Assembly: GCA_000002445.1 (NCBI GenBank)
Contig: CP000066.1
Span: 224,001 to 288,000, forward strand
Reading direction: 5' to 3'
Length of the DNA: 64,000 nucleotides
DNA from: Trypanosoma brucei
Taxonomy: Eukaryota
Shown here: one piece after another, positions 26,934 through 49,589 of the stretch
Position numbering within the stretch: the stretch's first letter is position 1
Layout: every line of letters starts with the position of its first letter
Program-made: the position numbers and the translations under genes
The notes under the pieces: generated by a model
What the model was told of the DNA's origin: nothing
What the model saw: the letters and a program-made list of their open reading frames with translations, nothing else
Databases searched by the model: none

Positions 26934-26938
<5 letters not shown>

Positions 26939-26967
<29 letters not shown>

Positions 26968-26976
26968 ATATATATT
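26939..26976. repeat. (TA)n microsatellite immediately upstream of the 27011 gene
   Basis: catatatatatatatatatatataattatatatatt. Confidence 0.85.
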
Positions 26977-27010
26977 GGAAGGGGGAATAAATATCACAAA
27001 TACATCGCTG

Positions 27011-28492: not shown

Positions 28493-29217
28493 AGTTTCAC
28501 ATACAAATTCGGTAGACGTTCTTGCGGGGAAACGGTGTGTTTCCTTCAAAAGAGACGAAAAGGGGGAAAAATAATAAAGAACAACAACAACGACAACAAA
28601 ACAAAACAAAAAAAGAAGGTGGTGTCATGACAGGCCGGATCCTCTCCTTCTAACACCCGAGTAGTTGCCCGCAAGACGTGTTTCTCAAGCAGGAGGAGAT
28701 TCGGAGGGGAAAGCCTCTTGGTGTTATATGTACCTTAGTTTCCCTTCCATTCCTTTCTTGTTATTTTATTGTAATTTTTTTTTCTTCTGTGCACCGAGGA
28801 GCTCACTTTTTCCTTTTTTCCCCCCCCTCTCTCTCTCTCTATATATATATATATAAGGGAAAAGTTGATGCTTTTATGCCTGTGAAGATTCGGTGCTCGT
28901 CTACTTGGGTAGTGTTTTGCCTGTCCGCCTTTGTTTTGTTTTTGTTTTTGTTTTTGTTCTTTTTCTTTTTTCGAATTTCATTTACATTCATACCATTAGT
29001 TGGTCCTGTCAAATACTTTCATTATACTAAATCTTTTATCGGTGCCTTTCTGTCTAATGACTGGAATTTTTTACAAAAAAAACTTTTTTCCCCTATATTT
29101 GTGTAATCAGAGTGCGCGTGTACCATACGAGCAGTGGCTAATTAAAGGGGAAAACAAACGATATATAATTATATAACCGAAAAAAAAATAATTATAATAA
29201 ATAAGTAAACAAAAAAT

Positions 29218-30291
29218 ATGCCGGCAAAAAAGAAAGGAGGGCGTGGAAAGACGCTTAATATTGTGGACTTCAATGTTGACTACATCCCGGAGGACAATTT
29301 AGACTGGGCAGTTGTGGTGCCTCAGGAAAAAACGCAGGAGCAGGTGTTGGAAGAGAAACTTGCCAAGAGGGATTACAGTCGTACAGCCAACAATGTTCTA
29401 GTTGAAAGCGGTGGTTTCCGCGAGGCCCCATCGGAGCAAGTCACACGGCGAAGGGGAATAGAAGACCTGGAGCCACCATATGTAGCGCATTTTGGAAACC
29501 TCCGCAACGGAACAACCGAGGAGGAGTTTCTGCGTAACTTTCACGAAGATGTTGTTGTGACATCACGGCTTATTAATCAGGATGGTAAAAGTTTCGCATT
29601 TGTAGAGTTTAAAACGCCTCAGGCCCTTCTTATTGCCCTCGCGATGGACCAATCACTTGTTAAAGGGCGTAAGTTATACGTAGATTTAGCCACGCCCAAG
29701 CAGGTGGAACGGTTACGCGGCCATAGTGGTGGACTTTCTCGCCAAAATGCGGGACAACCCCAACAAAACCCTGCACTTCAGAACGTTAACTTAACTCGTG
29801 ATGCGTTTGGATCTACGCAACCGAATGAGAGGGAAAAGGATTTGGGCAGCCGTTCCGGGTTTGGAAGCCGAAACGACTTGCATGTACTATCCGACCTCTC
29901 CCGTGATACGCTAGGAACTGCTACACGACCAAATGAAGGTCTGCTCAGTCCTGTTGGTCCACCGGATTTTTCCAGTTGGCGCACGGAGGCCCCAACGGCC
30001 CAACCGGAGTTTCAACCGACGCTGCGGGAAAACCGCCGAAGTGAAACCGATTTGGACCGTCGCCGTGGACGTGGTGGTGGTGGTGGTGGTGGAGTTAAGG
30101 GACAAAGTTTTGGAAGTCTTGCGAATTGGCGCGATGAACCGATGGTGCAGGCACCTCCAATGGTGACAGCAGCTGCTGGTGAGGGAAATGCGCCACCTGA
30201 AGAAGGCGGTGCGGGTCGTAGGAATCGCGGGCCCCCGAGGTCTTCCGCAGCACCGGCGGAACCCTGCAAGTGGGAGGAACTGCGGAGATGA
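29218..30291 (+). CDS. RRM-domain RNA-binding protein with Gly/Arg-rich C-terminal region
   Basis: Single RRM. It has an RNP2-like YVAHFGNL and an RNP1-like KSFAFVEFKTPQALLIALAMDQSLVKGRKLYV. The C-terminal region holds RRGRGGGGGGGVKG (encoded by (GGT)7 at 30058-30084) and RGG-like motifs. Confidence 0.65.
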   Translation: MPAKKKGGRGKTLNIVDFNVDYIPEDNLDWAVVVPQEKTQEQVLEEKLAKRDYSRTANNVLVESGGFREAPSEQVTRRRGIEDLEPPYVAHFGNLRNGTTEEEFLRNFHEDVVVTSRLINQDGKSFAFVEFKTPQALLIALAMDQSLVKGRKLYVDLATPKQVERLRGHSGGLSRQNAGQPQQNPALQNVNLTRDAFGSTQPNEREKDLGSRSGFGSRNDLHVLSDLSRDTLGTATRPNEGLLSPVGPPDFSSWRTEAPTAQPEFQPTLRENRRSETDLDRRRGRGGGGGGGVKGQSFGSLANWRDEPMVQAPPMVTAAAGEGNAPPEEGGAGRRNRGPPRSSAAPAEPCKWEELRR

Positions 30292-33200
30292 GGAGACTTT
30301 CCGTTGATGTTTTTCTTCTTTTTTTTCTTTTTTTAACGGAGGAAACACGACCGCATGGAGAGGGAAGGGGCGGGTTTTTCACCCAAAAGTGGATGATGGG
30401 GTGCCAAAAGATGTTTAATGCTGAGGGATTATAAATGGAAGCAAACACACAACCTTCGACAAACCGGAGGTCACCTTCAAGAGTGGCTTGAGGAGGGGTG
30501 GGCGATGGAAAAGCAGGATAAAAAAAAAGTTATGAAAGAGAGAAAAAGGAAAATTTTTTTTAAAAGTTTATTAATGGAGGAATGAAGAAAGAAAGAAAGA
30601 AAGGAAAAAAAAATCAAAGAATGAAGAATGCCGTTTAACTCGTTCGATACGATCGCTGCGCACCCTCCGTCATATAAATCATTTGTTCGCCCTCCCCATG
30701 CCGCAACGAAGGGAAGTTAAGGAAAGTGTAATACCTTCATTGAAAAGAAGAGGGTTCCCGAAGCAACTGTCCAGCGTGAAAGGATCATTTTAAATGTGAA
30801 ATATTTCCGCTAACAGTAAAGCGGAAGAATAATACGAAGCAACCATTCAAAAGAGGTTGCAAATGCACAGTGAACATCAAGAAATAAGTGAAAACAAAAA
30901 GGGGAGATAAAAGTAACGACCGTGGAAATATCACATCATAAACAGTGCGTTAGGGGGGGGGGGAAGGTGATTAGAGCGTTACTTGACGTGGGGAGGAGTA
31001 ATATGCGGACTAAAAATAATATAGGCATTTGTGTTCGGAAGTGATTTAAGGTATAATGAACGCGTTATGACTATCTAAGGAAGGATATGCTTGCATTGCA
31101 ACATGTTTTCACACAGAAGAAGCGATTATAAGAGGAGGGGGACCACTCTTCAAGGCGCATTAGTTTCTTTGTTTTCAACAGAGAACTTTGCAAAATCATT
31201 TTTTTTGTTAACCTCTTTTCATTCTTGTCACTCTAATTTTTCTTTCCCTCTTTCTAAGGCCACATAACACCCCATCTATTTAGCTAACAGTAAAGCAAAT
31301 AAAAAAATTATAGATATTGGAGGCCATGAGTTTCATATGCTGCAAGGAAATCGAGGCAGTAATGGCATTCCCAGGGAAAGCGAAGAAGGAAAATATTTCT
31401 CCCAGCTTGTGGACAGATCCCAGTCGCTACGATTTCCTGCCATGATGCGGTGTTGGCGCCACCACCGCTACCACAAATGAAACCACTGATGACTATAACG
31501 TTTCACTCTTGTCGTAGGAAATGTCTTGACGAAACTTATACTTCGTTTGATTCTGAATTATTTATTACTTCCTTCACACCCTATCATTCGTCGCCCCTTA
31601 TTTACTCTTTCCGTTGGAACAATGATGTGAATCTATCTGTGCAAATGACACCTCTAGTCTGAAACACAACATGACGCGAGCACAAATACAAGTTATCCCT
31701 GGCTGAGTAATCCAACTCCATTCTCTGTCCCTTCCCTAAGCAATTCATATCGAGTTCTCTACTGAGAGAATTCGCATATATATTTTTTTTTCTTTTTTTC
31801 TTTACTTGTGTATTTGGGGGGGGGGGGATTCGCGTTCGGTCCGCGCGACCATTTGGGATGATCTTAACACGGTATCGTATACTATTTTGCCATCTTTTTT
31901 TTTTTTCTGAGATGAGGCTGAAACACTTGCCCCATCACTTGGAAACTGAAATAGCAATGGCGAACGACATGCGACGTGAATGCCCACTGTATTGTAGCGG
32001 CAATGCCTGGAGTGAGGAATGTAAGCAGTCACACGACCCCTACATCCCTCTCTCAGTTACAATTTAAGGAGGTGGTGGTGGCCGGTATGTTATCACTGAG
32101 GGGATCACATTGGAAAGGAAATGCGCACATGCGTTCTTTCCTTTGTCACCTTCTCTTTTACCCTCCACTATCACCCTTTTCTTTTCCAACCCTTCCCTCA
32201 TCGTCATTCCAAGCTTTCAGTGGCACAGTCATCGCTCCGTCTTTTCGGCGGTGCGAGCGCGTCCTGCCCTGTCCTGCGCCATATAATAATCTCCATCCTC
32301 AGATTCGCTTAAAACTTTATTATCTAGAGTAATAATCTTCCCCTACCGACGAATGAAATTCCAAGTGCATCCTTGAAACTTGTGGAGAAAAATTTGGGGA
32401 AAAGGTGGCCCTTTTTAGGTGCCGTGGTGGAGTCTTTATTACCATCCACTGGTGCTGCGGCCAAATCACAGTTCCCAAAAACCTCCCTGCCGGTTCCGCC
32501 GGTGCGACTGCGCTGAAAGAAAGAAAAAAGGGATATTGATCGACCGCCGGGAAGCTCCACTACCGTGCCCGTGCGGGCGCTTAACTTTTGCTCAAACGTA
32601 TCTCCACTAGGTCCTTGAATTCATTCCCTGAGGTTCCTTCGCCTTACATGGGAATGCTTCATTACGTGTTAAGCGGGAACTACGGCGGAGAAAGGCCTCT
32701 CCACCTTACGAACCGGCTCTCTCTCCTTTCCAAAATTCGTGTGAAAATACAGCTTCTGTGAGGACTGCTGCTTATTTATTAATTTTTTTTTTTTTGGGGG
32801 GGGGGGGAGGAGGGTCGTAGGGCGCGAGGTTTTTAGCGACATTTTTGTCTTCCCTGCCCTCTGCGAGTAACGAACGCATTCAACATATTCAGTGTTTGAC
32901 CCTCCATTGACGGTGGTGTTTTTTTTTTTCCATGAAGGGCGACGGCTACACAGAGTAGCGCGGACGGAAGTGATGGCGAGAAAGGCAGAAGCTCCCTCCG
33001 CTTCCAAGTCGCGAACTCACTTGGCATACCCGAAATCCCAGCCTCTATTAGGGCGTTCACTCTTTTACATCGTTTTTTTCACCTCCTGGAGTCTCGCAGT
33101 CCCGTCTTCACGGGGCTGAGGCCCCACTACTTGGCTATTTTCCAGCCATGACCAATACAGCGGCGTCCCGCACCGTGTTGAAACTGAATCATCCGTCCAA

Positions 33201-35854
33201 ACGCATTCATTTTCAGCCAGATTCCCGTCGTCAATAGCAACCGCAGTTCCACGCAGCGGGAAGCACTTCCCGTCTTCCCGCACCTTGAGACTAGGGTGTC
33301 CCAACCGGAGTGCAGTCTCCGTGAAACTGGGTCATCACTGAAATGTCATTACCTGGAGCCTCGGCAAAGGAAAATGTGGTTGTCTAAACGACTTTCTTGT
33401 GTGTGGCGTGTGGTGGGGACTGTTGGGCAGCATGCCCGCCCGCGTGCACACCCCAAGTGAGTTCGACAATGCACTGGTGGGTGCCAAAGGGGGTCCGAGG
33501 TCTTGTTGCTTGCGATGCGTCGCCGGAAAAACACAAACCACGGCCGGCTTTTGGTGTGGTCGGGGGTAAGGTTACGTGTCCGCGCCGTCGGTTAGCACCT
33601 TTCACGTTGGCGAGGTCAGTTCGTAGCACTTTGGGTGGTGGCGGACTGTGTGTGGGGACGGGCGCTTTGCTCGTATTGGGGTGTGTCCCCCCTTGCGGTA
33701 TGCTCCCCAATTTAAGCAGACCTTCAAGCAATGCAATGCACTTCGCTCGCTATCTACGCGCTATCGCACCCATATGCCAGTGATCGATCGCTTTAAGGGC
33801 GACATCCGCCCCCCTTTCCGAGCGATGCCTAACCGTTAGCACGTCCCCTGTAATGATTACTACGGGTGAGTTGGGAACCTTACGACAAGTTTGTCTCGAG
33901 ACCTACTTGTTCCACAGCTACTTCGCGATCCGTCACCCTGGCGACGCGGGCGCAAGGGCAAAATGGCGGAGATGCTGAAAGCGTTCACGGGTATTATGAG
34001 GTTGGCGCTTGTGCTACAGCCCGGCCCTGACGCGGCTCGCTATCGCTGCTTGATCTCCCTTCCCTGACAACGCCCTGGGGCGTGCCGCCCTGCGGGGGGT
34101 TTCCGTCAATCCCGTGACTGGATGTGGGGTTTATGTGGTTTCGGAGGGGTCATGGCGCTCTTCCGGCGTGCCCTGGTTCCCCCTGGAGACCCTTCTGCGC
34201 CAACTGTCTTTGGGAACCTGTATTTGGCGTTCTATTCCTTCTTGTCCAAGTTGTGAATGTTGTCTGACCAGCGGCGTTGCGGTTTTCCGCCCGTTCCCCT
34301 CACAGGGCAGTGTGTGTTGGGGTCCCGCCTAGAGGTCAACGGTTTCATGCAGCACAGCGTGCAGGGTCAGTAGTGTTATGCCCGGCTCTCTCCCTTGCCG
34401 GTGCCTGCTACCTTTCGTTGCCTTACTGAATATCTGTGGGAGCCGTGAGGCAGCGGTTTCCCCTGCGTCGCCGCGAAGTGTAGACCCTCTGTTGTGTTTT
34501 ACATTATTGCTGCGCTCTGCGCCGTGGCCACTTCGTCGTTCGATTACTACCGTAAGCCGGTGTGTTCGTGGTGGGTGGTTTGTTGATCACTATACCGGTC
34601 TGCACATATTTGCTGCCAATGCTTCTGTATTGGAGCACCCTCTTTGATAGTTGGGAGTTTATGCACCTGTGCTATGCGTTGCGCAGGAAACTCTCGTCGC
34701 TCGTGTGCTTGCATGGGGAACGCAGCGGAGGGGAACGTGGTTGATGAATTTGCCTTAACTGGACGCTTAGGGATATGGTGTTGCGGGAGATTACTTGGTT
34801 CCGTCCACTGGCGTTGCGTAAAAACTTGGTATAACACTCGTCGCTTCAGGCGTTTGGCCGCTTCCTCGACTCGCCAGGTTTACACCTGACGCAACTTGGG
34901 CAGGAGGTCCTATTTCGGCAATTACGGCGGATTGATGCCGGTTGAGTGACGGCGCACCTTTTAAGCGTACTGAACGGTAATTCGGCGTCTCCTCGTGTAC
35001 CACTGTGTGTAGGAGACGTTGATGTGTTTGAACTTACGATATTAAATATGTTCAGGACCTGTTGGAACGTTAATAAAAAAATTATGCGCCAACTTCACTC
35101 GATTGTACCAAGCGTAGGGTTTCAGAAGCAAATGTATACGTATATATTGCCCGACGGTCGTATGCTGCCACATAACGGCTTGCCCCATATAACCATTTAG
35201 CGGGGGAAGTGGTCTATCGAAAATAAGCAAAGAAAAAAAAACGACACGGTACGAGCGTGATGGAAAGTAAGGGTGCCCTTTGGACTAGATTTTCACGCTA
35301 GATTCTCTATATTGACTGCTCATGCCATGGGTGGTTGTGGGATAACAAACAAACACAAAAAAATGTGACTCCGCTACTAGCTGTTGCGCTGCATTTCATA
35401 CCGCGAGGTATGGGGAATTATCTTCTTTTTCTGAAACCAAGGAAGTGCATGCATGTGTGAGTTGCCACCTCTGCTACATATATGTTTGGGTCCATAGCCA
35501 AAAGAGCGGAAAGGGTGGACTGAATTACGCACGCATAATGGACCAATACAAAATATTTATTCTTTTCCTACCATTGCTTATCACACCTTTTCTGTTAGTA
35601 AGGGTTATTATTGTTTGTGTTTTGATACAAATGGGGTGACATATAAACTCAACATGCTGGGGGTCACAGGCGTGCGAAGGCACTGAGCGAACGGTGAACA
35701 CCCAATCACTAAGTAACCAAATGTGTTATTTCCGCCTTTGTGTGTGCCGTTGTTGAGAGCACTATGTTGTGCTTTAAGGGTACCACTGTATTTTTTCTCC
35801 TTTTCGCGTATGCTCATTTACTGATTTTAATTAGTTGCAGTAAAAGAAATAAGT

Positions 35855-37055
35855 ATGAAGAACAGTGTTGCGCGCACTCAACCAGTGCGCAAGTATGAGA
35901 ACTTTACTTTGGAGAATAACTTACCGTTGGCACTGGGGGCCAATTTTCACGATGACCCAATTTGTCGCGATACAAACAGAACTAGTCACACGTTACTGTT
36001 GCCACGGAATGTAGACTATGCCCCCCATACAGAGTACGTATTTAATGGAGGTGGCTTCAATCGGGAAAATAAGATGAGAACTATTGATGAAGAGTTTGTC
36101 GATGAGGACGAGCCTGTGTTTGATGGTTGGATGACAGTAAACTTTGATAACCCCGATGACGCGAAGGATCACGTTGTGTCCTTTCTTGCGTACTTTGTGG
36201 AAGATATTCCAGAAGGGACTGAGACTAAGATCGTGAGGAAGGTTTGCATTCGTTATTACACACAGGATAATAGCATATCTGTGCAAGAGGCGAAGCAACA
36301 AAACAGTGGTATTGTGCAATCGACCATTCTGTCCCGAAGACAAGTACCGAGAAGAATGGACAACATCAATGATATTGTTATGCTGGAAGACTTCCAAATA
36401 GGTGGAACAATTACGTTATTCAGCAGAGAGTATCATATTCTTGACATGGATGCGAGAAGCCGCCTTTATTATAAGAAGGTACTTGGTCAAACAGTGCCAG
36501 AACCGTTGCCGTGGCCAATTGAGATTGACAAATTCACTACAATGCAAGCTCAACTATCCAAAAGCACTCATCGTCTTGCTACATCTGAAGATATGGACCA
36601 GAAGCGTGCGATTGAACAACAACTGACTGGTATTTACACGAAGCATCCCACGGAAGATATTCTTACAGCTCAAAACTTCCTTCGTCATAACATAAATGAG
36701 CACCTGACATTTTTAGCCCTGTGGGACGATCGCGAAAGTCTTAGTGGCGACCTTCGCTTTGTTGTGATTCGTCTGTATCTAGAGAATAACACTGTGGAGA
36801 TTATTGAGAGAAGACAAGAAAATTCCGGGCGAATGGGCAGTTCGGTGATTTTGGGCCGTCAGCGGGTTGCTCGCCCCGGTGCGGAAGGGAGCAAAATCCG
36901 TTTCCAGGAGCATACGTTTGGTGTTATATTAAAGCGGGACTTTCTTGTGGCAGAAGACATGAAAGTGGGAGAAACATATCATATTCACGGTCGACCCTAT
37001 TTTATATACGATGCCGACGAAGCAACACGCCGTTACATGAAGAACGAACTTGGTA
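35855..37055 (+). CDS. EFHC1/Rib72-like: 5' portion of a Rib72/EFHC1-like flagellar DM10-domain protein, interrupted by IS10. The track ORF 35855-37093 ends in 13 IS10-derived codons.
   Basis: It carries repeated DM10-type modules (e.g. ...VRKVCIRYYTQDNSISVQEAKQQNSGIVQSTILSRRQVP...FQIGGTITLFSREYHILDMDARSRLYY...). The reading frame continues without a stop across the IS10 insertion into 38394-39532 (insert + duplication = 1338 bp = 446 codons). The terminal ...TDESPNDFGKNH* of the track ORF is translated IS10 end sequence. Confidence 0.8.
37047..37055. repeat. Left copy of the 9-bp target-site duplication (AACTTGGTA) flanking IS10
   Basis: AACTTGGTA occurs immediately before the IS10 outside end (37056) and again at 38385-38393 immediately after the inside end. 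9 bp is the IS10/Tn10 duplication length. Confidence 0.9.
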
Positions 37056-37078
37056 CTGATGAATCCCCTAATGATTTT
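37056..37078 (+). repeat. IS10 outside-end terminal inverted repeat
   Basis: CTGATGAATCCCCTAATGATTTT matches 17/23 with the reverse complement of the inside end (CTGAGAGATCCCCTCATAATTTC), the known imperfect IS10 termini. Confidence 0.85.
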
Positions 37079-37101
37079 GGTAAAAATCATTAAGTTAAGG
37101 T

Positions 37102-37170
37102 GGATACACATCTTGTCATATGATCAAATGGTTTCGCGAAAAATCAATAATCAGACAACAAGATGTGCGA
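37102..37170 (-). ncRNA. RNA-OUT: Predicted IS10 antisense RNA-OUT region (pOUT transcript opposing the transposase 5' end)
   Basis: Placed from established IS10 organisation (RNA-OUT covers element bp ~47-115, overlapping the transposase start at bp 108 = 37163). A Dam site GATC at 37122-37125 lies in the pIN promoter region. Not independently verifiable from the sequence. Confidence 0.45.
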
Positions 37171-38371
37171 ACTCGATATTTTACACGACTCTCTTTACCA
37201 ATTCTGCCCCGAATTACACTTAAAACGACTCAACAGCTTAACGTTGGCTTGCCACGCATTACTTGACTGTAAAACTCTCACTCTTACCGAACTTGGCCGT
37301 AACCTGCCAACCAAAGCGAGAACAAAACATAACATCAAACGAATCGACCGATTGTTAGGTAATCGTCACCTCCACAAAGAGCGACTCGCTGTATACCGTT
37401 GGCATGCTAGCTTTATCTGTTCGGGCAATACGATGCCCATTGTACTTGTTGACTGGTCTGATATTCGTGAGCAAAAACGACTTATGGTATTGCGAGCTTC
37501 AGTCGCACTACACGGTCGTTCTGTTACTCTTTATGAGAAAGCGTTCCCGCTTTCAGAGCAATGTTCAAAGAAAGCTCATGACCAATTTCTAGCCGACCTT
37601 GCGAGCATTCTACCGAGTAACACCACACCGCTCATTGTCAGTGATGCTGGCTTTAAAGTGCCATGGTATAAATCCGTTGAGAAGCTGGGTTGGTACTGGT
37701 TAAGTCGAGTAAGAGGAAAAGTACAATATGCAGACCTAGGAGCGGAAAACTGGAAACCTATCAGCAACTTACATGATATGTCATCTAGTCACTCAAAGAC
37801 TTTAGGCTATAAGAGGCTGACTAAAAGCAATCCAATCTCATGCCAAATTCTATTGTATAAATCTCGCTCTAAAGGCCGAAAAAATCAGCGCTCGACACGG
37901 ACTCATTGTCACCACCCGTCACCTAAAATCTACTCAGCGTCGGCAAAGGAGCCATGGGTTCTAGCAACTAACTTACCTGTTGAAATTCGAACACCCAAAC
38001 AACTTGTTAATATCTATTCGAAGCGAATGCAGATTGAAGAAACCTTCCGAGACTTGAAAAGTCCTGCCTACGGACTAGGCCTACGCCATAGCCGAACGAG
38101 CAGCTCAGAGCGTTTTGATATCATGCTGCTAATCGCCCTGATGCTTCAACTAACATGTTGGCTTGCGGGCGTTCATGCTCAGAAACAAGGTTGGGACAAG
38201 CACTTCCAGGCTAACACAGTCAGAAATCGAAACGTACTCTCAACAGTTCGCTTAGGCATGGAAGTTTTGCGGCATTCTGGCTACACAATAACAAGGGAAG
38301 ACTTACTCGTGGCTGCAACCCTACTAGCTCAAAATTTATTCACACATGGTTACGCTTTGGGGAAATTATGA
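37163..38371 (+). CDS. tnp: IS10 transposase (402 aa, intact)
   Basis: MCELDILHDSLYQFCPELHLKRLNSLTLACHALLDCKTLTLTELGRNLPTKARTKHNIKRIDRLLGNRHLHKERLAVYRWHASF... through ...EDLLVAATLLAQNLFTHGYALGKL is recognised as the Tn10/IS10 transposase (DDE, IS4 family). It has an ATG start, a TGA stop and no frameshifts. Confidence 0.97.
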   Translation: MCELDILHDSLYQFCPELHLKRLNSLTLACHALLDCKTLTLTELGRNLPTKARTKHNIKRIDRLLGNRHLHKERLAVYRWHASFICSGNTMPIVLVDWSDIREQKRLMVLRASVALHGRSVTLYEKAFPLSEQCSKKAHDQFLADLASILPSNTTPLIVSDAGFKVPWYKSVEKLGWYWLSRVRGKVQYADLGAENWKPISNLHDMSSSHSKTLGYKRLTKSNPISCQILLYKSRSKGRKNQRSTRTHCHHPSPKIYSASAKEPWVLATNLPVEIRTPKQLVNIYSKRMQIEETFRDLKSPAYGLGLRHSRTSSSERFDIMLLIALMLQLTCWLAGVHAQKQGWDKHFQANTVRNRNVLSTVRLGMEVLRHSGYTITREDLLVAATLLAQNLFTHGYALGKL

Positions 38372-38384
38372 GGGGATCTCTCAG
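38362..38384 (-). repeat. IS10 inside-end terminal inverted repeat (contains Dam site GATC at 38375-38378)
   Basis: GAAATTATGAGGGGATCTCTCAG. The reverse complement CTGAGAGATCCCCTCATAATTTC pairs with the outside end. Confidence 0.85.
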
Positions 38385-38393
38385 AACTTGGTA
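38385..38393. repeat. Right copy of the 9-bp target-site duplication (AACTTGGTA)
   Basis: Identical to 37047-37055. Confidence 0.9.
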
Positions 38394-39532
38394 TTGAACT
38401 CGCACCGTGTGTAGACATAAAGCCTATCCTTGCCTCCGACGAGAAAAAGCCAATAATATTCTTTCCTCCCCCACCAAACGGCTTTGGGAGCGAACGAGAA
38501 AACCGATCAAGTTGGCTAACTTTAAATCCAAGGCCGATGCGCCGTGATGTTGAAAAAATTGAAAAAGAAGAGGGCAGGGTCATGAATTTTTTGGCGGAGT
38601 TGGCCAATCCTTTGGTCCGCGGTGATGAGAAGAGGAGATTTGTTATATCCTTTTTTAGAGAAACTGATGAAATGTCTATTTATGAAAAACCCGAACGGAA
38701 CTCAGGTTACCTTGCCGGGAGGTTTCTTGCAAAAGGTGTTTATCGGAAACCAATGCCAGATGGCTCAACCGTTCCCTACACGGCAGAGGACTTCCAGGTT
38801 GGGAAGGAGATTACAATACTTGAGCGTCCTTTTCGTCTCCTCGATATGAGTGAAGAGACGAAGAGGATACTTACCGTAACGGAGCAACTCCCTTCTGAGC
38901 AGCGGCTGAAGGAGTTACTTCTTTTATTCAAGCAGCAAATTCAGCTAAAATTTACTCGTGGCCACGAAGCCTACTGTACATTGGCTCCTAAGGGAGTATT
39001 GGGCTATCGTCAGGTTCGCGAATTCTTAAGGTCGTGTAGCTGTTCTATAACCGAGGACGAAGCACTCCTCCTCGTACACAACCTCGTTCCTTCTAGTGCC
39101 GGAGTGATTTCATTTAATGAGTTCATGGATTTGGTGAACATAACCTCTTCAGAACATATGGATGAAGCTTCACTGACGGTGCGCTCTGTAAAGAGCGTAA
39201 ACATGACAAAAGACGAATCACTGAAGACAGTAGCTATCAAAACAGAGGACGTGAAACGAAGGAAACAGCTTGCAGTTGAGTTACGCCAAAAGTTGATCCA
39301 AAGGAAGGGTTCCGTACAGGAGCAGTTTCGCCTCATTGGTTGCCACAGCGCATCATCCCGGTTAAATCGAGATGTTTTCCGCCACTCACTGAACGAAGTA
39401 ATGCACTTTAACGTTCCTAAGACGGACGAGGATATGCTTGTGTCACTCCTTTTCGATGGGAGAGCTGACGAAAACGGCGACATAACGTACAAGCAATTCC
39501 AAGAATTCCTTGAGGTTCAGGATGATATCTAG
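38394..39532 (+). CDS. EFHC1/Rib72-like: 3' portion of the Rib72/EFHC1-like DM10 protein (in frame with 35855-37055; the track ORF 38537-39532 is its C-terminal part)
   Basis: Translation from 38394 in the upstream gene's frame is open (IELAPCVDIKPILASDEKKPIIFFPPPPNGFGSERENRSSWLTLNPRPMRRDVEKIEKEEGRVMNF...). It contains a third DM10-like module (LAGRFLAKGVYRKPMPDGSTVPYTAEDFQVGKEITILERPFRLLDMSEETKRIL) and a C-terminal EF-hand-like loop (LFDGRADENGDITYKQFQEFLE). Reconstructed uninterrupted product is 779 aa. Confidence 0.8.
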
Positions 39533-39823
39533 ATTTTATTTTTCAAAAATTCTCCATCGTGGATGTGAACAAATACACGAATGATATTATGTTTTAAATT
39601 TTTATTCATTGATATGTATACTGGTGATGTTAGATTAGCTAGAGAGGAACTGCAACATAGGTAATCGAAACCGATACAGTAGTTTTTGTATTGAATGTTG
39701 GTAGCAGCGGTCGGTTGACTGTTTAATGGCTCAGTTTGTCGCATTTTTGTAATACTTCGTTGGTGCCATAGCTGCCTTATGTTCATTTGTCCTCTCTGCG
39801 TGTTGTTTCTTCAGACTAGTTGT

Positions 39824-41158
39824 ATGAGGAATGCCCCATTGCTCTTGTTTGGAGCGGGTGGAACCCTCGGAGGGGTTAAAAAGATAGCCAATCCTAAGAC
39901 TATTCCGTACCACAGTTGGGTGCTTTCAGAAAAGTCGAGGGTCCTATTAGACTCTATTCACCATCCTCTAGTCACAGAATACTTTCTTCGACTAAACATG
40001 AGGCGTGTGGGGCTTGAACAACAACAAGAGTGCGCTGACTTGGCTTCACTGCACACTAAAGTCGGGGACACTTCTTACAATCACGTGATGTGGAATATTC
40101 AGTACAGAGATGAACTGGACGTGTCGGAGAGGCTATCAGCCCATTTACTGAAGATTAATGACAACATAAAGTTGAAGGACCAACTTCATTCACATGAAAC
40201 TCTGTCAGACGACGATCGGGATATATTACTCATGGTAGAAGAAGATGTCCGGGAGCTCGTTGAGAAGGTTCGTGACATGGATAGTGACGTGAATGCCGTC
40301 ATGACGCGGCGTCTCAATTTGAGTGATGCTCTGGGATCATGTACCAACACATGGTCGCTTGAGGTTGCTGGAAAGGCTGGTGGCGAGGAGGCATCTCTAT
40401 TTGCATCTGAGTTGCTCGAGATGTATAGGGCATACGCAACTGAAATAAGGCATTGGAGCGTTGATGTGGACGGTGGTGAAGGAGATGGCGAGCCCGTTAG
40501 TTCCGGTGGTCCTGCAGTCGGTGGAAATGGAATGAAAATTAAAGTTAAAGGGGAAGGGGTGTACCGCAATCTACGGCATGAGATTGGGGTTCACAAGGTT
40601 CAACGGGTACCCGTTACCGACCAAGATGGAAAGATGCAAACCTCTACAGCTGTGGTTACTCTGATGCCCGTGCTTGACCCAGTTTCTGTTGATGTTCACG
40701 AAAAGGATTGCAACATTGAATTCGTTCGGGGGTCAGGACCAGGGGGTCAGGGAATGCAAAGCAGTTCCAACGCCGTTTGTTTAACGCATAAACCATCTGG
40801 TATATCAGTCAAATGTCACCAGTCCCGGTCGGCTCTTGGAAATAAGGAACTTGCGCTACAGATGGTCGCCCAACAACTGTTGGTACGTCGTGTAAAGGAC
40901 CAAAATTCTTCTCTTCATGAGACGTGGTGCAATCAATGGAGCAGTGGAGAGCGATCAGACAAAATGAGGACGTACAATTACCCACAAAACCGTGTCACTG
41001 ATCATCGCCTCGGGAGGGATTACTCCTTGGGAACGTTTTTAGATGGCGGTGCTGGTCTGGTGGGATTGCACGATGACCTTAACGCAATCGATGATAGGCA
41101 ACAACTTGTACGAGTGCTTTTGCAACATATTGAGAGCGACTTCAACTGTGTTACGTAA
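39824..41158 (+). CDS. Peptide chain release factor, class I RF1-type (probably mitochondrial)
   Basis: GGQ motif (FVRGSGPGGQGMQSSSNAV). PxT-type decoding motif (RVPVTDQDGKMQTSTAVV). Conserved RF1 blocks: EVAGKAGGEEASLFASELLEMYRAYA, GERSDKMRTYNYPQNRVTDHRLG. Start chosen at the ATG (39824) that follows a pyrimidine-rich tract and AG. The track ORF begins at ATG 39779. Confidence 0.8.
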   Translation: MRNAPLLLFGAGGTLGGVKKIANPKTIPYHSWVLSEKSRVLLDSIHHPLVTEYFLRLNMRRVGLEQQQECADLASLHTKVGDTSYNHVMWNIQYRDELDVSERLSAHLLKINDNIKLKDQLHSHETLSDDDRDILLMVEEDVRELVEKVRDMDSDVNAVMTRRLNLSDALGSCTNTWSLEVAGKAGGEEASLFASELLEMYRAYATEIRHWSVDVDGGEGDGEPVSSGGPAVGGNGMKIKVKGEGVYRNLRHEIGVHKVQRVPVTDQDGKMQTSTAVVTLMPVLDPVSVDVHEKDCNIEFVRGSGPGGQGMQSSSNAVCLTHKPSGISVKCHQSRSALGNKELALQMVAQQLLVRRVKDQNSSLHETWCNQWSSGERSDKMRTYNYPQNRVTDHRLGRDYSLGTFLDGGAGLVGLHDDLNAIDDRQQLVRVLLQHIESDFNCVT

Positions 41159-41432
41159 AGGAAAAAAAGTGACAGAGAGAAGACGTGGGTGCCTAGTTCT
41201 ATCAATCGGTACTGCGATCCTTATTCGAGTGAGCAACCCGTGTTACTCTAAACTGATGTACCTTTTTTCACCCTGCTTGGAGGTTAATAGTCCGATATAG
41301 TTATTGCTGGCCTTTTGTGCACTTTCATCTGCACCCTATTGAGTCTACTTGGAAACTATTAATAGCCAACAACCAGCTGAGGGATAACGGGTGACGAGTA
41401 CTGGAACATTACAAGAAGCAACAGTATTTTCG

Positions 41433-42188
41433 ATGGCACAGGAGGGATTGAAAGAGGTAACGGATTCTCCATATTTTCTTAAGAAGTGGCTTGCCTTTAT
41501 CGATTACGCAGCCAATGACCTTTTCGGAGGCCCGCGGCCCCTCAAGGCAGCCCATGTCATCAATCTGCAGAAGGGCGGGACGCTCTTCTTTTGCTTGTGG
41601 TTGATGAAGAAGTCTGGTAACTACTCCGCAACGGCGATAACATATACCGCCCTTCATGGTGGATACGGTCTCTGCTGGTTACTGAAAGAGCTTGTTTTCC
41701 CAGATCCAAAGTGGCAAAAACACATCACGTTTGCAGGGGCTCTCACCATATTTGCCTCTGTTCTGGGACCCTACTGGTATATTGTATACAATGCAATTAT
41801 AAGAAAGGCAGAGCGTTCTGAGGGTGCACTCTGCGCAGCAACTCTTGTATACTTAATTGGACTTGTAATGATGATGTGCAGTGACTGTCAAAAATACTTC
41901 GTGTTGAAGAAAAAGAAGGGTCTTATAACTGATGGTTTTTTCTCTCGTATTCGGCATCCTAATTACCTTGGGGAGATGATGATCTATGGTACGTTTGGCT
42001 TCATCTCGAATCATGTGGGGTCCTTTGGGGTTCTTGCGTGGGTTTGGGTAGGACTGTTTCTCCCTTTCATGATTCAAAAGGAGGCAAGCATGAGTCGCTA
42101 CAGTGAATGGAGGGCGTACAAAAGCCGGACTGGTTTCTTGCTACCAAGTGTTCTTCCTCCGAAGCAGAAAACTACAACGGTAGAATGA
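41433..42188 (+). CDS. Polytopic membrane protein of the ICMT / DUF1295 / steroid-reductase-like methyltransferase superfamily
   Basis: Several predicted TM helices. C-terminal RHPNYLGEMMIYGTFGF is the R-H-P-x-Y-hydrophobic-G-E signature of the isoprenylcysteine carboxyl methyltransferase / phospholipid methyltransferase-like superfamily. First ATG is at 41433; the track start 41391 is GTG. Confidence 0.65.
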   Translation: MAQEGLKEVTDSPYFLKKWLAFIDYAANDLFGGPRPLKAAHVINLQKGGTLFFCLWLMKKSGNYSATAITYTALHGGYGLCWLLKELVFPDPKWQKHITFAGALTIFASVLGPYWYIVYNAIIRKAERSEGALCAATLVYLIGLVMMMCSDCQKYFVLKKKKGLITDGFFSRIRHPNYLGEMMIYGTFGFISNHVGSFGVLAWVWVGLFLPFMIQKEASMSRYSEWRAYKSRTGFLLPSVLPPKQKTTTVE

Positions 42189-42631
42189 TGCAGCGCGAGC
42201 ATTCGAAGTTAGTTCTTTTCTCCCATCAATATTAGTGGGGCTATGGTTCTATCCCATCTTCAGTGTGGTCGGCTGCGTTTTTTTCCTTTTACTTGGCGTG
42301 CTGTAGCTCGCGAAACCATCACTCCATCATTTGCCGGTTTTCACCCCACTTAGTTTAGGGGACGGAAATTGCTTGTGTTTCTTAAATTTCTTGGGCGGTT
42401 ACCTCTCTTCACATCACCAGGCAATGCACGTGTATATTTAACTAAACGCTGTGCTTCACGCGGGGTTACCCCGACTTTAGAAATTGTGGTTATGTTTTTT
42501 CCACCTTCCTTTTGCCCTTCAGGAGTATCAAAGTTAGAGTGTGTTGTGCTGGTGCGACAGTGAAAAGACAAAAATAAAGGGCAATACACATCTCACAAAC
42601 CGAGTTAACCGTGTACCAAAGGACGAGCAAG

Positions 42632-42889
42632 ATGAGCTCACTATTGTCTGCAGCCGACGCGAAAGTTGCGGGGAAGGGTTATCCGCCAGCTGACAATTCC
42701 AAGACGTACACGGAAGTACCCCGGCACCAGGTGCCTGCTAAGGGACCTATCAGGTCTTTTTTGTCACTCGTTAGCACGGAGTTCGCCCTTAACACTATGG
42801 ACACCACAGAGCGAGTTTTTACTGTTTTGCTTTGTGTGGCGTTTATCTCTTTAGTTCTTTGGTTGCTCAACCTTGTCTTTATTTCCTAG
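42632..42889 (+). CDS. Small tail-anchored membrane protein (85 aa), hypothetical
   Basis: First ATG of the GTG-initiated track ORF at 42611. Hydrophilic N-terminus (MSSLLSAADAKVAGKGYPPADNSKTYTEVPRHQVPAKGPIRS). Single C-terminal TM helix (VFTVLLCVAFISLVLWLLNLVFIS) ending at the stop. No family assigned. Confidence 0.35.
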   Translation: MSSLLSAADAKVAGKGYPPADNSKTYTEVPRHQVPAKGPIRSFLSLVSTEFALNTMDTTERVFTVLLCVAFISLVLWLLNLVFIS

Positions 42890-43366
42890 CCACGTGGACA
42901 TTGAAGGAATTTTGGTGGTTGCCGCTCGCCGGGGCGCTGCCTCTGGAGCGGACCCAAACCTGTTGAAGGTCAAGTGTGGCGTATGTGCGTAGCGAATTGT
43001 TCTTGTTATGCCTGTGCATCCCTGGCCGCGTTATCCACTTTTCTTCTGTTACCCATTGCAGTGTAAAAAGATTTGTGCTTTGCGCTCGGTGCGTATGTAT
43101 ATCCGCGATTCGTTGGTGTGGTGACTAGCGATGGGTTAATTTTTTACGCTCTTTCTTGTGAAAGGTTACTAGAAGTGCAGTGTGACCTCTATTCTCCCCC
43201 TTTAGTCATCCATTAGGTACATATTGCTTTTGAAAATTGAATCTGCATAGGCTACATTCCCCTCATGATTTCCCCCTTAGCATATCTCGGCTGGCTTTCC
43301 CCTCTGTTGATCTCTCTAAATCCTTTATAATGCTGTTGTTGCGACGCACGTATGTTGATTAGTTAG

Positions 43367-44005
43367 ATGACGTACTGCCCCATTACGCGAAAGGAGTTGG
43401 AGAGGTACCTTCCGAACTTCGATCCTCTCCTTGACCCGCAAATTGGGGAATGGGTGCTTGTAACCCCGGAGCGTCGCTTTGCTATCCTTGGTCCACTCTT
43501 GCAGTTTGTCCAAGAACATGCGATTAAACCAATCTATCCATTTCTTGACAATAGTGAACCATCATCTGCCCCCGTGACGACCTTTAATTTTTGCAAAGAA
43601 GACTCACCTAAAACACTGGGCGATCCATCTAAGGTGTTCCCCACGCTGAGTGAAGTGTGGCGGAGGTACCGCCGTCGTCGGTTCCACATTTCTGGCATGG
43701 ACGAGGATGGAATCGGAGAGGAGGAGGAAAATGATGACACGATACTGTACCTAAATCCACGGGCCCTGTTGCTCACACCGTGTGCTCCAGCCGTGTTTGG
43801 GGGCTCTGATTTTATTGAAGGATTGGATAGGGAAGGTGAGCGGGTGGTGTTCGTAAACTGGAAAACAGGGGAGACTCGCACCGATAGCGGGGTGTTGAAG
43901 CCGGCTCCGATTCCAGCATGGGCAGAAGATGTTGCGGAAAAGGCTGCCATGGAGTGGGAGTCATGGAAGAAATGTGTGATTCCTCCCTCATCAACCAGAG
44001 AGTGA
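43367..44005 (+). CDS. Hypothetical protein (212 aa)
   Basis: ATG-initiated + strand ORF in the same orientation as the cluster. No recognisable domain. Confidence 0.4.
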   Translation: MTYCPITRKELERYLPNFDPLLDPQIGEWVLVTPERRFAILGPLLQFVQEHAIKPIYPFLDNSEPSSAPVTTFNFCKEDSPKTLGDPSKVFPTLSEVWRRYRRRRFHISGMDEDGIGEEEENDDTILYLNPRALLLTPCAPAVFGGSDFIEGLDREGERVVFVNWKTGETRTDSGVLKPAPIPAWAEDVAEKAAMEWESWKKCVIPPSSTRE

Positions 44006-44959
44006 CATGGTGGGACTTCCTCTTCGTGGGGAAATAACGGAGAATAGGGGAAGGAAGTTGGAGGTGGTACAAGTGCGCTGGTGCTACCGCGGGAAATGCG
44101 TCGGGCCCCACGTGACCGTCAGCCTTGTGAACCACACAGGCGGCGGCGAAGGTCAATGGATGTTTGGGGGTTTGAAAAAGGTGATCAAAGAAAAGGGTGC
44201 TTATTTACATTGAATGAGGTTCCGTATCGTAGTTGGTCGTGTGGAAGGCGGACGCAAATTTTCTTCCACACCCCACTTGCTTTTTTGCACGGGGATTTAA
44301 GTGCACATGGAGCGGACTGGCACTGTGTTTGATTTTCCGGAGTTATTCTGTAACCGGTGCCACTATTTGGAATATCGTAACACGGTAGGTGACATTCTTT
44401 TCATTGGCTTTCTTGTATAGTGTTCGGGCCAATAACTTTCTTTGCAGGAAATGTGAACCAAACATTGGCTTCCATTGGTGGCCCTTGTGATGGGAGTCTT
44501 TGGGAATGGTAATCTTACGCGAGCGTCCAGCCACTTGTTGTCCGCTAATATGGCACTAATATCGACTAACCGGATCCGAAGCAGCGGTGGGGCTTACTCC
44601 ATGTGTTCCTGGTGCAGTTTCTGTTGCGTAACGTTGCACTATTTTTTGAAGGGGGTCAAGTTGAGGGATGGCGGCAAAGGGATGTGATGAACCAAGAACA
44701 TTTGCTGCTTGCATTGTGTTGTTCCTAATCCGGCGTTGTAATTTCACGTTTATATTTTTTGCGGCGATGGAACTTTTTTTCTTGATGTCAGGCGTCATGA
44801 AAGACTGCTCTGTCGTCCATAGTCTGGTCTGGGAAGCAACTAAGCTGTTCCTGAGGAGCTTTCGTGTTCACTATTCGGGACAGCTGCACAACATTAGTTC
44901 TTGATCTTGTACATGCAACTTTCTTTTTATTTACAAAAAGCAGACGAAGCCAGAGGGAC

Positions 44960-46153
44960 ATGAGACGCGCTTGTGTACATTTTGCCCGAGCCATCAAGGC
45001 AACACAAAACCTTACTCATTTGGAGGTCTTCACACAGCTTCAACTAGGTATCCACCCGCCGTTGAGTACTCAGCGTCAATTCCTTCAACAACACTTTGAT
45101 GTGGAGATGGAGCGTCGAGGTATAACAGAGACAAAACTCTTAGCTATGGATGGGCACCTCTGTACTCAGCTACTCCGTCAGTTGTTGTTTGAGCGGTATC
45201 TATCAGTTCCGTTTCGTCTTTTCACCTTTGATTTGGAGTTTACGGGGCCGCCTGTGTTTGGACCTGATGGCCCTACCGAGGATATCATGGAGTTTGGGTT
45301 TTATTCTCCGGCTCATGACAAAGTGTTTTCGTGTCTCGTTCGGCCGAGCAATGGTCGCTGTGTTTCTCCCGAGGTAACAACTCTAACGCACATAACTCAG
45401 AAGATGCTAGAGGAAGACGGTCTTCCCTTTCGAGATGCTTGGGCAAAGGTGCTTGATTTTCTTAATACACCGGAACCCCAGGAGCTCCCCGGTGCTGAGA
45501 AGCGGCTGCTTGTGCTCAGTCACGGAGGAAAATTGGCTGACGTTTCCTTGATCAAGTGGACTCTGGAAGCGTCGGGTATGGAGCTCCCTTCAAACATTAT
45601 TTTTGGTGACACGTTTCATTTGATTCGCGACGCCCATCGTCGTCGGCCGGTGACATTGGATAAGCACCCACCCACTTGGGGCCTCAGTGACCTTGTGCAG
45701 TGGTTGCGGATACCCCCAACGCTTCCTGCCCACCGCGCAGGTAACGATGCGAAGATGACATGGGACGCCTTGTATCACACGCTGGAGCGCTATGGTGACG
45801 AGGATTTGACACCGCGTGAACAACTTGTCTCACGGTTCTTTGATGTGGAAGCCAAACAAGTGATGAGTCAAGCCGGAATACGCAGTCATGCGCAGCCTGA
45901 TGGGACGTTGGAAAATGATACCAGTTACATGGAAGCTTCTGTTAGCGACTCCCTCGACCTTGACTTTGATGAGATATTTACCCCTGACGGAAAGCAGCGA
46001 CCTGAAGTGTCAGAAGACCGTACGGACGATGTTCCTGACGGTTCGAAAGGGGAGAGTCACAGTGGTGCATCCCGCGGAAAGGTGCGAAGTGGAAAACGTA
46101 ACGGTAGGAGCAGTTCCAGCGGCGGGGATCGTGGAGAGGAGTTCATCATTTAG
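44960..46153 (+). CDS. DEDDh-type 3'-5' exonuclease (DnaQ/RNase T-like) domain protein
   Basis: Exo motif I FTFDLEFTGP (D-x-E), motif II LVLSHGGKLADVSL, motif III HRAGNDAKMTWDALYH (H-x4-D). Acidic/Ser-rich C-terminal tail. Start set at the ATG (MRRACVHF...) after the CT-rich tract and AG inside the GTG-initiated track ORF. Confidence 0.7.
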   Translation: MRRACVHFARAIKATQNLTHLEVFTQLQLGIHPPLSTQRQFLQQHFDVEMERRGITETKLLAMDGHLCTQLLRQLLFERYLSVPFRLFTFDLEFTGPPVFGPDGPTEDIMEFGFYSPAHDKVFSCLVRPSNGRCVSPEVTTLTHITQKMLEEDGLPFRDAWAKVLDFLNTPEPQELPGAEKRLLVLSHGGKLADVSLIKWTLEASGMELPSNIIFGDTFHLIRDAHRRRPVTLDKHPPTWGLSDLVQWLRIPPTLPAHRAGNDAKMTWDALYHTLERYGDEDLTPREQLVSRFFDVEAKQVMSQAGIRSHAQPDGTLENDTSYMEASVSDSLDLDFDEIFTPDGKQRPEVSEDRTDDVPDGSKGESHSGASRGKVRSGKRNGRSSSSGGDRGEEFII

Positions 46154-46402
46154 TCTTTTTTTCTGACTTATCCTTTCAATGGTTTAAAGTAGATCGTGCT
46201 CTGACTCTTATTTTTGCCACCGAGCCGTTTCGGTGTGCCCGAAGGGAGAGTCCTTTAACTTTTGCTCCAGGTTATCCACGCTGTGGAATTTCTCATGGAT
46301 TTACATCATCAGCATTCAACGAAGGAGCACGTGACCATTGCTGCCGAGGCGTAACAATATGTCAGGAAAGAAGAGTATTGTACAATCATTCATGAAAATA
46401 AT

Positions 46403-46404
<2 letters not shown>

Positions 46405-46437
<33 letters not shown>
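46405..46437. repeat. (TA)16 microsatellite
   Basis: atatatatatatatatatatatatatatatat in the intergenic region between the exonuclease and IFT38-like genes. Confidence 0.9.
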
Positions 46438-46440
<3 letters not shown>

Positions 46441-46797
46441 GACATTAGTCGGTGCGAAAAACAACGACACACACATATTCGCATAAGACAGTACAATTCA
46501 CTCCCAAGGTCTGGCTTTTTGTGCTCTTTTTTTCACCAATGTCACCGAACCTTCTGTGCACCGTTTTTTTTTCTGTGATGCAATTAATTTTGTACTTAGA
46601 TAGTAGGGAGTTGCAAAATACAATTCTTGCTGTCAACTCGTTTTGTGGTTTCGTTCCAGACGTACGTATTACAATCCGTTGCTCATATTGGCGTGAGTCA
46701 GGCATAACGCCCCCCCCCCAAAAAAAAAAGAAGACGATATATTTGTTAGCTTTGCGTATAAGGTTAGCATCGGCTCCACCACGTCGAAACAGTCGAA

Positions 46798-49210: not shown

Positions 49211-49320
49211 CGCTTTCCTTTATTCTTTTAATCTCTTGTGTCGTTTTAAAGTTATGCTTGTGAATACCGTTTACTTCTTCTATTTCCGTTACTGCTGATG
49301 TTATTCTTGGTGTTCTGGTG
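49211..49320 (+). promoter_or_regulatory. Pyrimidine-rich tract upstream of the Ran gene
   Basis: cgctttcctttattcttttaatctcttgtgtcgttttaaagttatgcttg...tttacttcttctatttccgttactgctgatgttattcttggtgttctgg. Confidence 0.45.
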
Positions 49321-49589
49321 TGTACGGGGTGTAGTGTGCAATATCCTAAGCGAAGGGTAAGATTTATTTGGGGAATCCCTTGAACTACTGCAGTGTTCCA
49401 CTTCAGAGCAATAAAAGGAGTTATCTTCCTACACGAAAGGGAAAACAACAATTAGAAGGCCGATCTAAAAAAACAAACAAAGAAAGAACCAACAATAACA
49501 ACACGGGAATAGACATAGTGCAAGTATATCAGGAAATATACAAGGGAGAGTCGTAAAAAAAAAAAAAAAGTAAATAAACATAAATAAAA

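What the first reader, a model, noticed from the sequence alone, without database searches (positions are those of the whole stretch)
37047..38393. Intact bacterial IS10 with perfect 9-bp target duplication inside a eukaryotic flagellar gene
What the sequence shows:
- A complete 1329-bp IS10 (Tn10-type) sits inside a kinetoplastid protein-coding gene.
- It has imperfect terminal inverted repeats and an undamaged 402-aa transposase.
- It is flanked by a perfect AACTTGGTA direct repeat.
- Its composition and codon usage visibly differ from the flanking DNA.

Interpretation: an intact, undiverged element with a fresh duplication points to a very recent transposition. The likeliest origin is the E. 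coli cloning host (common cloning strains carry chromosomal IS10 copies), hopping into a BAC/cosmid/fosmid insert during propagation. That makes this a clone/assembly artefact rather than parasite biology. Genuine horizontal acquisition by a trypanosomatid would be extraordinary, and nothing here supports it.

Practical consequence: the host gene is split into two ORFs. Any annotation containing them (35855-37093 with a 13-codon IS10-derived tail, and 38537-39532) is wrong.
Basis: partly seen in the sequence, partly recalled or inferred. Interest (0 to 1): 0.85.

Follow-up and report, generated by a model that had tools for sequence, protein, structure and literature searches.

The report
Cloning-host IS10 splitting trypanosome CARP4 gene
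A bacterial jumping gene (IS10) from the E. coli strain used to clone the DNA landed in a Trypanosoma brucei flagellar gene (CARP4) during BAC propagation; this is a real feature of the sequence but a laboratory artefact that the genome project and two papers had already documented.

Summary
Window 37056-38384 is a complete 1,329-bp IS10-right, flanked by a perfect 9-bp duplication (AACTTGGTA). It carries an intact 402-aa IS4-family transposase and an intact RNA-OUT antisense gene. It is 100% identical to one chromosomal IS10 copy of the BAC host E. coli DH10B, and it is the only E. coli-like DNA in the 64 kb.

Removing the element plus one repeat copy restores a 779-codon ORF. That ORF is identical to T. 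b. brucei 927 CMF34/CARP4, a Rib72/EFHC1-like protein with three DM10 domains. Independent assemblies of T. equiperdum and T. b. gambiense have an empty site with one AACTTGGTA.

Kolev et al. 2010 state that Tb927.3.1050 ("Tn10 transposase") gets no RNA-seq reads. They add that, per GeneDB, it is a BAC artefact absent from strain 927 genomic DNA and from other BACs. Gould et al. 2013 amplified a contiguous ORF from Lister 427.

One sub-claim is weak: GC content does not differ from the host gene (44-45% in both), and only the GC skew flips. Verdict: already known, ordinary, low interest.

The parts
35855..37055 (+). 5' part of the host gene CMF34/CARP4 (historically annotated Tb927.3.1040): 400 codons plus the first base of codon 401
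   Evidence: ORF list. Joining it to 38394-39532 gives a 779-aa ORF identical to P0054. Gene IDs come from PMC3811416 and PMC2936537.
37047..37055 (.). Left copy of the 9-bp target-site duplication AACTTGGTA (original host sequence)
   Evidence: A single copy is present at the empty sites in T. equiperdum and T. b. gambiense.
37056..38384 (+). Complete IS10-right (IS10R; named ISVsa5 family in NCBI annotation), 1,329 bp
   Evidence: 100% identical to E. coli copies. Exact match to the DH10B nupG copy. Identical to the copy next to tetD in a Tn10 remnant.
37056..37078 (+). Outside-end terminal inverted repeat (23 bp)
   Evidence: 17 of 23 positions match the reverse complement of the other end. 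Calling this the outside end rests on established IS10 knowledge: it is the end next to the transposase start.
37101..37170 (-). RNA-OUT, the antisense RNA that represses transposase translation
   Evidence: Rfam RF00240, 98.8 bits (gathering score 41), full length 1-70.
37122..37125 (.). GATC (Dam) site in the promoter region upstream of the transposase gene
   Evidence: Position. Its role in Dam-methylation control of IS10 is established knowledge and was not tested here.
37163..38371 (+). IS10 transposase gene, 402 aa, intact (historically annotated Tb927.3.1050, 'Tn10 transposase')
   Evidence: The exact protein is in the collection as 'IS4-like element ISVsa5 family transposase'. Gene ID from PMC2936537.
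38362..38384 (-). Inside-end terminal inverted repeat (23 bp), containing the second GATC at 38375-38378
38385..38393 (.). Right copy of the 9-bp target-site duplication AACTTGGTA (made by the insertion)
38394..39532 (+). 3' part of CMF34/CARP4, in frame with the 5' part once the IS10 and one repeat copy are removed. The mechanical ORF 38537-39532 (historically Tb927.3.1060) is its ATG-initiated subset.

Best explanation
The window is most likely the T. brucei brucei TREU927 chromosome 3 reference, sequenced from BAC clones. While the BAC carrying this region was propagated in E. coli, an active IS10-right copy transposed from the host chromosome into the insert. IS10 moves by cut-and-paste. 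Its DDE transposase makes staggered cuts 9 bp apart at the target, and repair duplicated AACTTGGTA. The insertion landed at codon 401 of the flagellar gene CMF34/CARP4, a Rib72/EFHC1-like protein with three DM10 domains. It split the gene into two apparent ORFs with a bacterial transposase ORF between them.

Shown here: the element's identity, the duplication, the exact donor copy in DH10B, the restored ORF, and the empty sites in related genomes.
Taken from the literature: absence from strain 927 genomic DNA and other BACs, and absence of transcripts.
Inferred: that the host strain of this particular BAC library was DH10B.
For: - Exact 1,329-bp IS10 with a perfect 9-bp duplication.
- 100% identity to E. 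coli copies, specifically to DH10B NC_010473.1:3199469-3200797.
- IS10R type: the identical copy lies beside tetD-tetC-tet(B)-tetR. The two other DH10B copies differ at 16 and 10 positions.
- Intact transposase and intact RNA-OUT.
- The target AACTTGGTA fits the consensus reported for IS10 cloning artefacts, NPuCNNNGPyN, as quoted in PMC2758499.
- No other E. coli DNA in the 64 kb.
- Excision restores a 779-aa ORF with 0 differences from the Tb927 CMF34/CARP4 entry.
- Empty sites in T. equiperdum (flanks 99.5-99.7% identical) and T. b. gambiense.
[quoted passage not shown] Contiguous PCR product from Lister 427 (PMC3811416). IS10 is the commonest host IS found in clone reads (PMC2891674). DH10B and other cloning strains carry IS10.
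Against: - I could not examine raw reads or genomic DNA of strain TREU927 myself. Absence from that strain rests on a GeneDB statement quoted in PMC2936537.
- The host strain of the BAC library was not documented in any paper I could read. A search for RPCI-93 found nothing.
- The target matches only 3 of the 6 specified positions of the classical hotspot NGCTNAGCN, although non-consensus IS10 insertions are well documented.
Confidence: 0.97

Rival explanations
1. IS10 is really present in the T. brucei TREU927 genome, through recent bacterium-to-trypanosome horizontal transfer.
For: Only that the element is in the deposited assembly and has a clean target duplication.
Against: - Zero divergence from the DH10B copy over 1,329 bp.
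- Empty site in T. equiperdum and T. b. gambiense.
- It would knock out a flagellar gene whose knockdown gives a phenotype, and whose full-length product is tagged and expressed from one ORF (PMC3811416).
- No RNA-seq reads on the transposase. GeneDB reports absence from 927 genomic DNA and other BACs (PMC2936537).
Confidence: 0.003
2. Assembly chimera: contaminating E. coli reads were joined into the trypanosome consensus, with no physical insertion in any clone.
For: E. coli read contamination is common in clone-based projects (general knowledge).
Against: - The E. coli-like DNA starts and stops exactly at the IS10 termini.
- It is flanked by a perfect 9-bp duplication of host sequence, which is the signature of transposition and not of a mis-join.
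- No E. coli chromosomal flank is present anywhere in the window.
Confidence: 0.01
3. Same mechanism but a different step or host: IS10 hopped into a small-insert shotgun subclone, or in a host strain other than DH10B, and not into the BAC itself.
For: IS10R copies identical to this one are widespread, in 1,968 of 5,426 E. coli genomes. Other cloning strains such as JM109 and XL1-Blue also carry IS10R. IS10 is often seen in individual shotgun reads (PMC2891674).
Against: An insertion in a single subclone would be outvoted by the other reads covering the site and would not normally reach the consensus. The genome project attributed it to the BAC (PMC2936537).
Confidence: 0.02

Closest known systems
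IS10-right of Tn10 (IS4 family; 'ISVsa5' in NCBI naming), chromosomal copy in E. coli K-12 DH10B at the nupG disruption
   Same: Identical at all 1,329 positions. Same 23-bp ends, 402-aa DDE transposase, RNA-OUT, two GATC sites and 9-bp target duplication.
   Different: Nothing in the element itself differs. Only the location differs: it lies inside cloned trypanosome DNA.
Documented IS10 cloning artefacts in eukaryotic database entries (Kovarik et al. 2001; Astua-Monge et al. 2002; e.g. insertions into the ATRX cDNA, pUC19 and pSU vectors)
   Same: A full-length, undiverged IS10 with a 9-bp duplication inside eukaryotic or vector DNA propagated in E. coli. The target fits the relaxed consensus NPuCNNNGPyN. 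The same transposase sequence is even filed as a 'human' protein, Q6AW98_HUMAN.
   Different: This one persisted in a finished reference chromosome and generated three gene models: Tb927.3.1040, Tb927.3.1050 and Tb927.3.1060.
This very locus as already described: Tb927.3.1040/1050/1060 in Kolev et al. 2010 and Gould et al. 2013
   Same: Chromosome III, a 'Tn10 transposase' ORF interrupting one transcript and one 779-aa ORF (CARP4), declared a BAC artefact. The restored protein here is identical to the Tb927 CMF34/CARP4 entry.
   Different: Those papers do not give the anatomy worked out here: the exact ends, the AACTTGGTA duplication, the IS10R type and the exact DH10B donor copy. Gould et al. 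call it only a 'sequence contaminant'.

Membership tests
IS10 / IS4-family insertion sequence | About 1,329 bp, with near-identity to reference IS10R | tested here: met
   1,329 bp. 100% identical to E. coli copies, including the DH10B nupG copy and the tetD-adjacent copy of Tn10.
IS10 / IS4-family insertion sequence | Imperfect terminal inverted repeats of about 23 bp | tested here: met
   17 of 23 positions complementary, CTGATGAATCCCC... against CTGAGAGATCCCC....
IS10 / IS4-family insertion sequence | 9-bp target-site duplication | tested here: met
   AACTTGGTA on both sides. One copy at the empty sites.
IS10 / IS4-family insertion sequence | Single DDE transposase of the IS4 family, 402 aa | tested here: met
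   Pfam PF01609 E=1.5e-24. NCBIfam NF033591 at 404 bits (cutoff 152). The exact sequence is named ISVsa5-family transposase.
IS10 / IS4-family insertion sequence | RNA-OUT antisense regulator overlapping the transposase start | tested here: met
   Rfam RF00240 at 98.8 bits, full length, 37101-37170 on the minus strand.
IS10 / IS4-family insertion sequence | Target preference NGCTNAGCN | tested here: inconclusive
   3 of 6 specified positions match, and all three mismatches are transitions. The site fits the relaxed consensus NPuCNNNGPyN quoted in PMC2758499.
Cloning-host IS insertion artefact | Element identical to a copy resident in a cloning host strain | tested here: met
   Exact match to DH10B NC_010473.1:3199469-3200797.
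Cloning-host IS insertion artefact | Precise removal restores an intact, conserved host gene | tested here: met
   A 779-aa ORF with 0 differences from Tb927 CMF34/CARP4. Full-length orthologues occur across trypanosomatids.
Cloning-host IS insertion artefact | Empty site in independent assemblies of close relatives | tested here: met
   T. equiperdum CZPT02001330.1 and T. b. gambiense FN554966.1 have a single AACTTGGTA and no IS10 hits.
Cloning-host IS insertion artefact | Absent from uncloned genomic DNA and from other clones of the same strain | not testable with these tools
   Reported by GeneDB as quoted in PMC2936537. Contiguous PCR product from Lister 427 genomic DNA in PMC3811416.
Cloning-host IS insertion artefact | No other host-bacterium DNA around it (an insertion, not a chimeric clone) | tested here: met
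   Megablast of the whole window against 5,426 E. coli genomes hits only the IS10 interval.
Rib72/EFHC1-like DM10 proteins (the interrupted host gene) | Three DM10 domains | tested here: met
   Pfam PF06565, 3 stretches, E=1.2e-67.
Rib72/EFHC1-like DM10 proteins (the interrupted host gene) | C-terminal EF-hand | tested here: inconclusive
   No EF-hand family reached E<=0.001 for this protein in my Pfam scan. Some orthologues carry PF13499. Gould et al. predict one EF-hand.

The most novel reading that the evidence does not exclude
The IS10 is a genuine, very recent insertion in the genome of the sequenced T. brucei TREU927 stock. That would be a bacterial insertion sequence transposing into a kinetoplastid chromosome.
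Probability: 0.003. Interest if true: 0.9.

Novelty: already known. Interest (0 to 1): 0.05.

Why it matters
It matters only as a matter of data hygiene.
- A bacterial IS in a eukaryotic reference can be mistaken for horizontal gene transfer.
- It splits a real gene (CARP4/CMF34, a cAMP-response and flagellar ribbon protein) into two false pseudogenes.
- It adds a false 'trypanosome' transposase to protein databases.

The trypanosome community has known about this and worked around it since at least 2010, so nothing new about parasite biology follows. The only small additions here are the base-level anatomy of the insertion and the exact donor copy in DH10B.

Tried and rejected
- Composition as evidence of foreign origin: rejected as weak. 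GC is 44.0% in IS10 and 45.1% in the host gene, and only the GC skew flips sign.
- First DH10B copy examined, at the opgB junction: 10 mismatches, so not the donor. A second region around nupG/endA, guessed from my recollection of the strain's construction, held the exact copy.
- Durfee et al. 2008, the DH10B genome paper (PMC2293198), is not held.
- Searches for the BAC library (RPCI-93) and for TREU927 with DH10B gave nothing useful. The host-strain assignment therefore remains an inference.
- PMC10359306 held none of the phrases I searched for on DH10B IS10 copies.
- The split ORF products are not in the protein collection as exact sequences. I could not show from that source that they are still deposited as proteins.
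- The '100%' identity to T. equiperdum is rounding. There are 3 amino-acid differences.
- A third AACTTGGTA at 34823 is a chance occurrence.
- No tandem repeats were found at 30.0-35.9 kb.

Full report

Yes. The 9-mer AACTTGGTA occurs at 37047-37055 and again at 38385-38393, and the DNA between the two copies is exactly 1,329 bp (37056-38384). From the base composition of the flanks, a 9/9 match at the two junctions has a chance of about 4e-6. The element's ends are imperfect inverted repeats, matching at 17 of 23 positions.

The element contains one uninterrupted ORF, 37163-38371, of 402 aa. This ORF hits Pfam DDE_Tnp_1 (E=1.5e-24) and the NCBIfam IS4 transposase model at 404 bits against a cutoff of 152. 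Rfam finds a full-length RNA-OUT, the IS10 antisense regulator, at 37101-37170 on the minus strand (98.8 bits, gathering score 41). It is the only Rfam hit in the whole window. Two GATC sites lie where IS10's Dam sites are expected, at 37122 and 38375. Their regulatory role is established knowledge and was not tested here.

**2. What is the element?**

Megablast against 5,426 complete E. coli genomes gives 100% identity over the full length. Matches occur in 1,968 genomes, annotated 'IS4-like element ISVsa5 family transposase'. In plasmids, the identical copy lies directly beside tetD-tetC-tet(B)-tetR, which is the IS10-right position of Tn10. The gene order of Tn10 is established knowledge.

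I then examined E. coli DH10B (NC_010473.1) and found three copies:
- The copy at 3199469-3200797, which disrupts nupG, matches the window element at all 1,329 positions.
- The copy at the other side of the roughly 11-kb inversion differs at 16 positions.
- The copy at the opgB deletion junction differs at 10 positions.

So the window element is IS10R, the transpositionally active form (PMC11148124), and an exact donor exists in a standard cloning host. The exact transposase protein is also filed in UniRef under a human clone name, Q6AW98_HUMAN. That shows how often this artefact reaches databases.

**3. What is around it?**

Megablast of the whole 64 kb against E. coli genomes hits nothing but the IS10 interval. 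This is therefore a clean insertion and not a chimeric clone.

Removing 37056-38393 (the IS10 plus one repeat copy) joins 35855-37055 to 38394-39532 into one 2,340-nt ORF of 779 codons. Its product has three DM10 domains (Pfam E=1.2e-67). Full-length orthologues of 770-790 aa occur throughout trypanosomatids, and several are named 'protein associated with the ribbon compartment of flagellar microtubule' or 'cAMP response protein'.

The restored protein compares with close relatives as follows:

| Entry | Differences from the restored protein |
|---|---|
| 'CMF34/CARP4', T. brucei brucei strain 927/4 GUTat10.1 | 0 |
| T. b. gambiense | 1 |
| T. equiperdum | 3 |

The window is therefore most likely the TREU927 reference.

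**4. Independent empty sites**

The T. equiperdum contig CZPT02001330.1 aligns to window 26917-37059 and 38384-49549 at 99.5-99.7% identity. It has a single AACTTGGTA at the junction and no IS10. T. b. gambiense FN554966.1 shows the same.

**5. Literature**

This exact locus is already described.
- Kolev et al. [quoted passage not shown] They say it is inserted within one transcript that covers Tb927.3.1040 and Tb927.3.1060. [quoted passage not shown]
- Gould et al. 2013 (PMC3811416) named the joined 779-aa gene CARP4 (Tb927.3.1040/60) and called the middle ORF a sequence contaminant. They amplified a contiguous ORF from Lister 427 genomic DNA.
- By 2023 the gene is listed as Tb927.3.1060, 779 aa, an orthologue of Chlamydomonas Rib72 and human EFHC1 (PMC10354285).

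The general phenomenon is also well known.
- IS10 from cloning hosts is a major contaminant of eukaryotic database entries (Kovarik et al. 2001, as cited; Astua-Monge et al. 2002, as cited).
- IS10 was the commonest host IS in shotgun reads, at 68 of 109 (PMC2891674).
- It entered K-12 laboratory strains through the use of Tn10 in strain construction.

**6. Mechanism**

IS10R moves by cut-and-paste transposition from the E. coli chromosome into the BAC insert, with 9-bp staggered target cleavage and repair that produce the duplication.

The target AACTTGGTA matches 3 of the 6 specified positions of the hotspot NGCTNAGCN, and all three mismatches are transitions. It fits the relaxed consensus NPuCNNNGPyN reported for cloning artefacts.

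The basis of each step is:
- Shown here: the element's identity, the duplication, the donor copy, the restored ORF and the empty sites.
- From the literature: absence from 927 genomic DNA, other BACs and the transcriptome.
- Inferred: that DH10B was the host of this particular BAC library. DH10B is the usual BAC host, but I found no paper that states it for this library.

**7.

The 'visibly different composition' claim does not hold for GC content. IS10 is 44.0% GC and the host gene 45.1%, and the sliding windows are indistinguishable. Only the GC skew flips sign and codon usage is modestly different.

**8. Verdict**

This is a real sequence feature, correctly interpreted, and already documented for this exact locus. 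It is a cloning artefact of a well-known kind and of no biological novelty. The residual probability that it is a true genomic insertion is about 0.3%.

Noticed in passing
L006 19469-20797 and 31929-33257; L003 20589-21917 (E. coli DH10B NC_010473.1): DH10B's three IS10 copies are not simply 'two IS10R plus one IS10L' as summarised in PMC11148124. One is exact IS10R. One differs at 16 positions (IS10L-like). The opgB-junction copy shares only the first 10 of those 16 differences (element positions 24-903) and is IS10R-like over the last ~400 bp. That looks like a left/right recombinant or a gene-conversion product.
   Followed up: partly
window 30292-35854: A 5.5-kb stretch between two genes has no open frame longer than 131 codons on either strand. 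It includes a GC-rich block (55-60% GC, AT skew down to -0.44) at about 33000-34750. It is also less conserved against T. b. gambiense (97.8% with 9 gaps) than the downstream DNA (99.5%). No tandem repeats were found. Its nature (long UTR or intergenic region, or a decayed element) was not determined.
   Followed up: partly
L001 4016-5107 (T. equiperdum CZPT02001330.1): A 1,092-bp block bounded by runs of N is absent from the window (it would fall at window ~30930-30954) and matches nothing else in the window. It carries a called CorA-like gene fragment. It is probably a contig misplaced into a scaffold gap of the T. equiperdum assembly.
   Followed up: partly
window 37163-38371 (protein): The identical 402-aa IS10 transposase is filed in UniRef under a human cDNA clone name ('Uncharacterized protein DKFZp686P13170', Q6AW98_HUMAN, n=189, Tax=root). 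That is the same cloning artefact in other eukaryotic submissions.
   Followed up: no
window 1-64000: All 21 ORFs of at least 250 aa are on the + strand, consistent with one trypanosomatid polycistronic transcription unit. The IS10 transposase happens to lie in the same orientation.
   Followed up: no
L005 3001-5427 (T. b. gambiense FN554966.1): The gambiense orthologue is annotated as 808 aa, with a 29-residue N-terminal extension (MLCFKGTTVFFLL...) that the 779-aa T. b. brucei and T. equiperdum models lack. This is probably a start-codon annotation difference.
   Followed up: no
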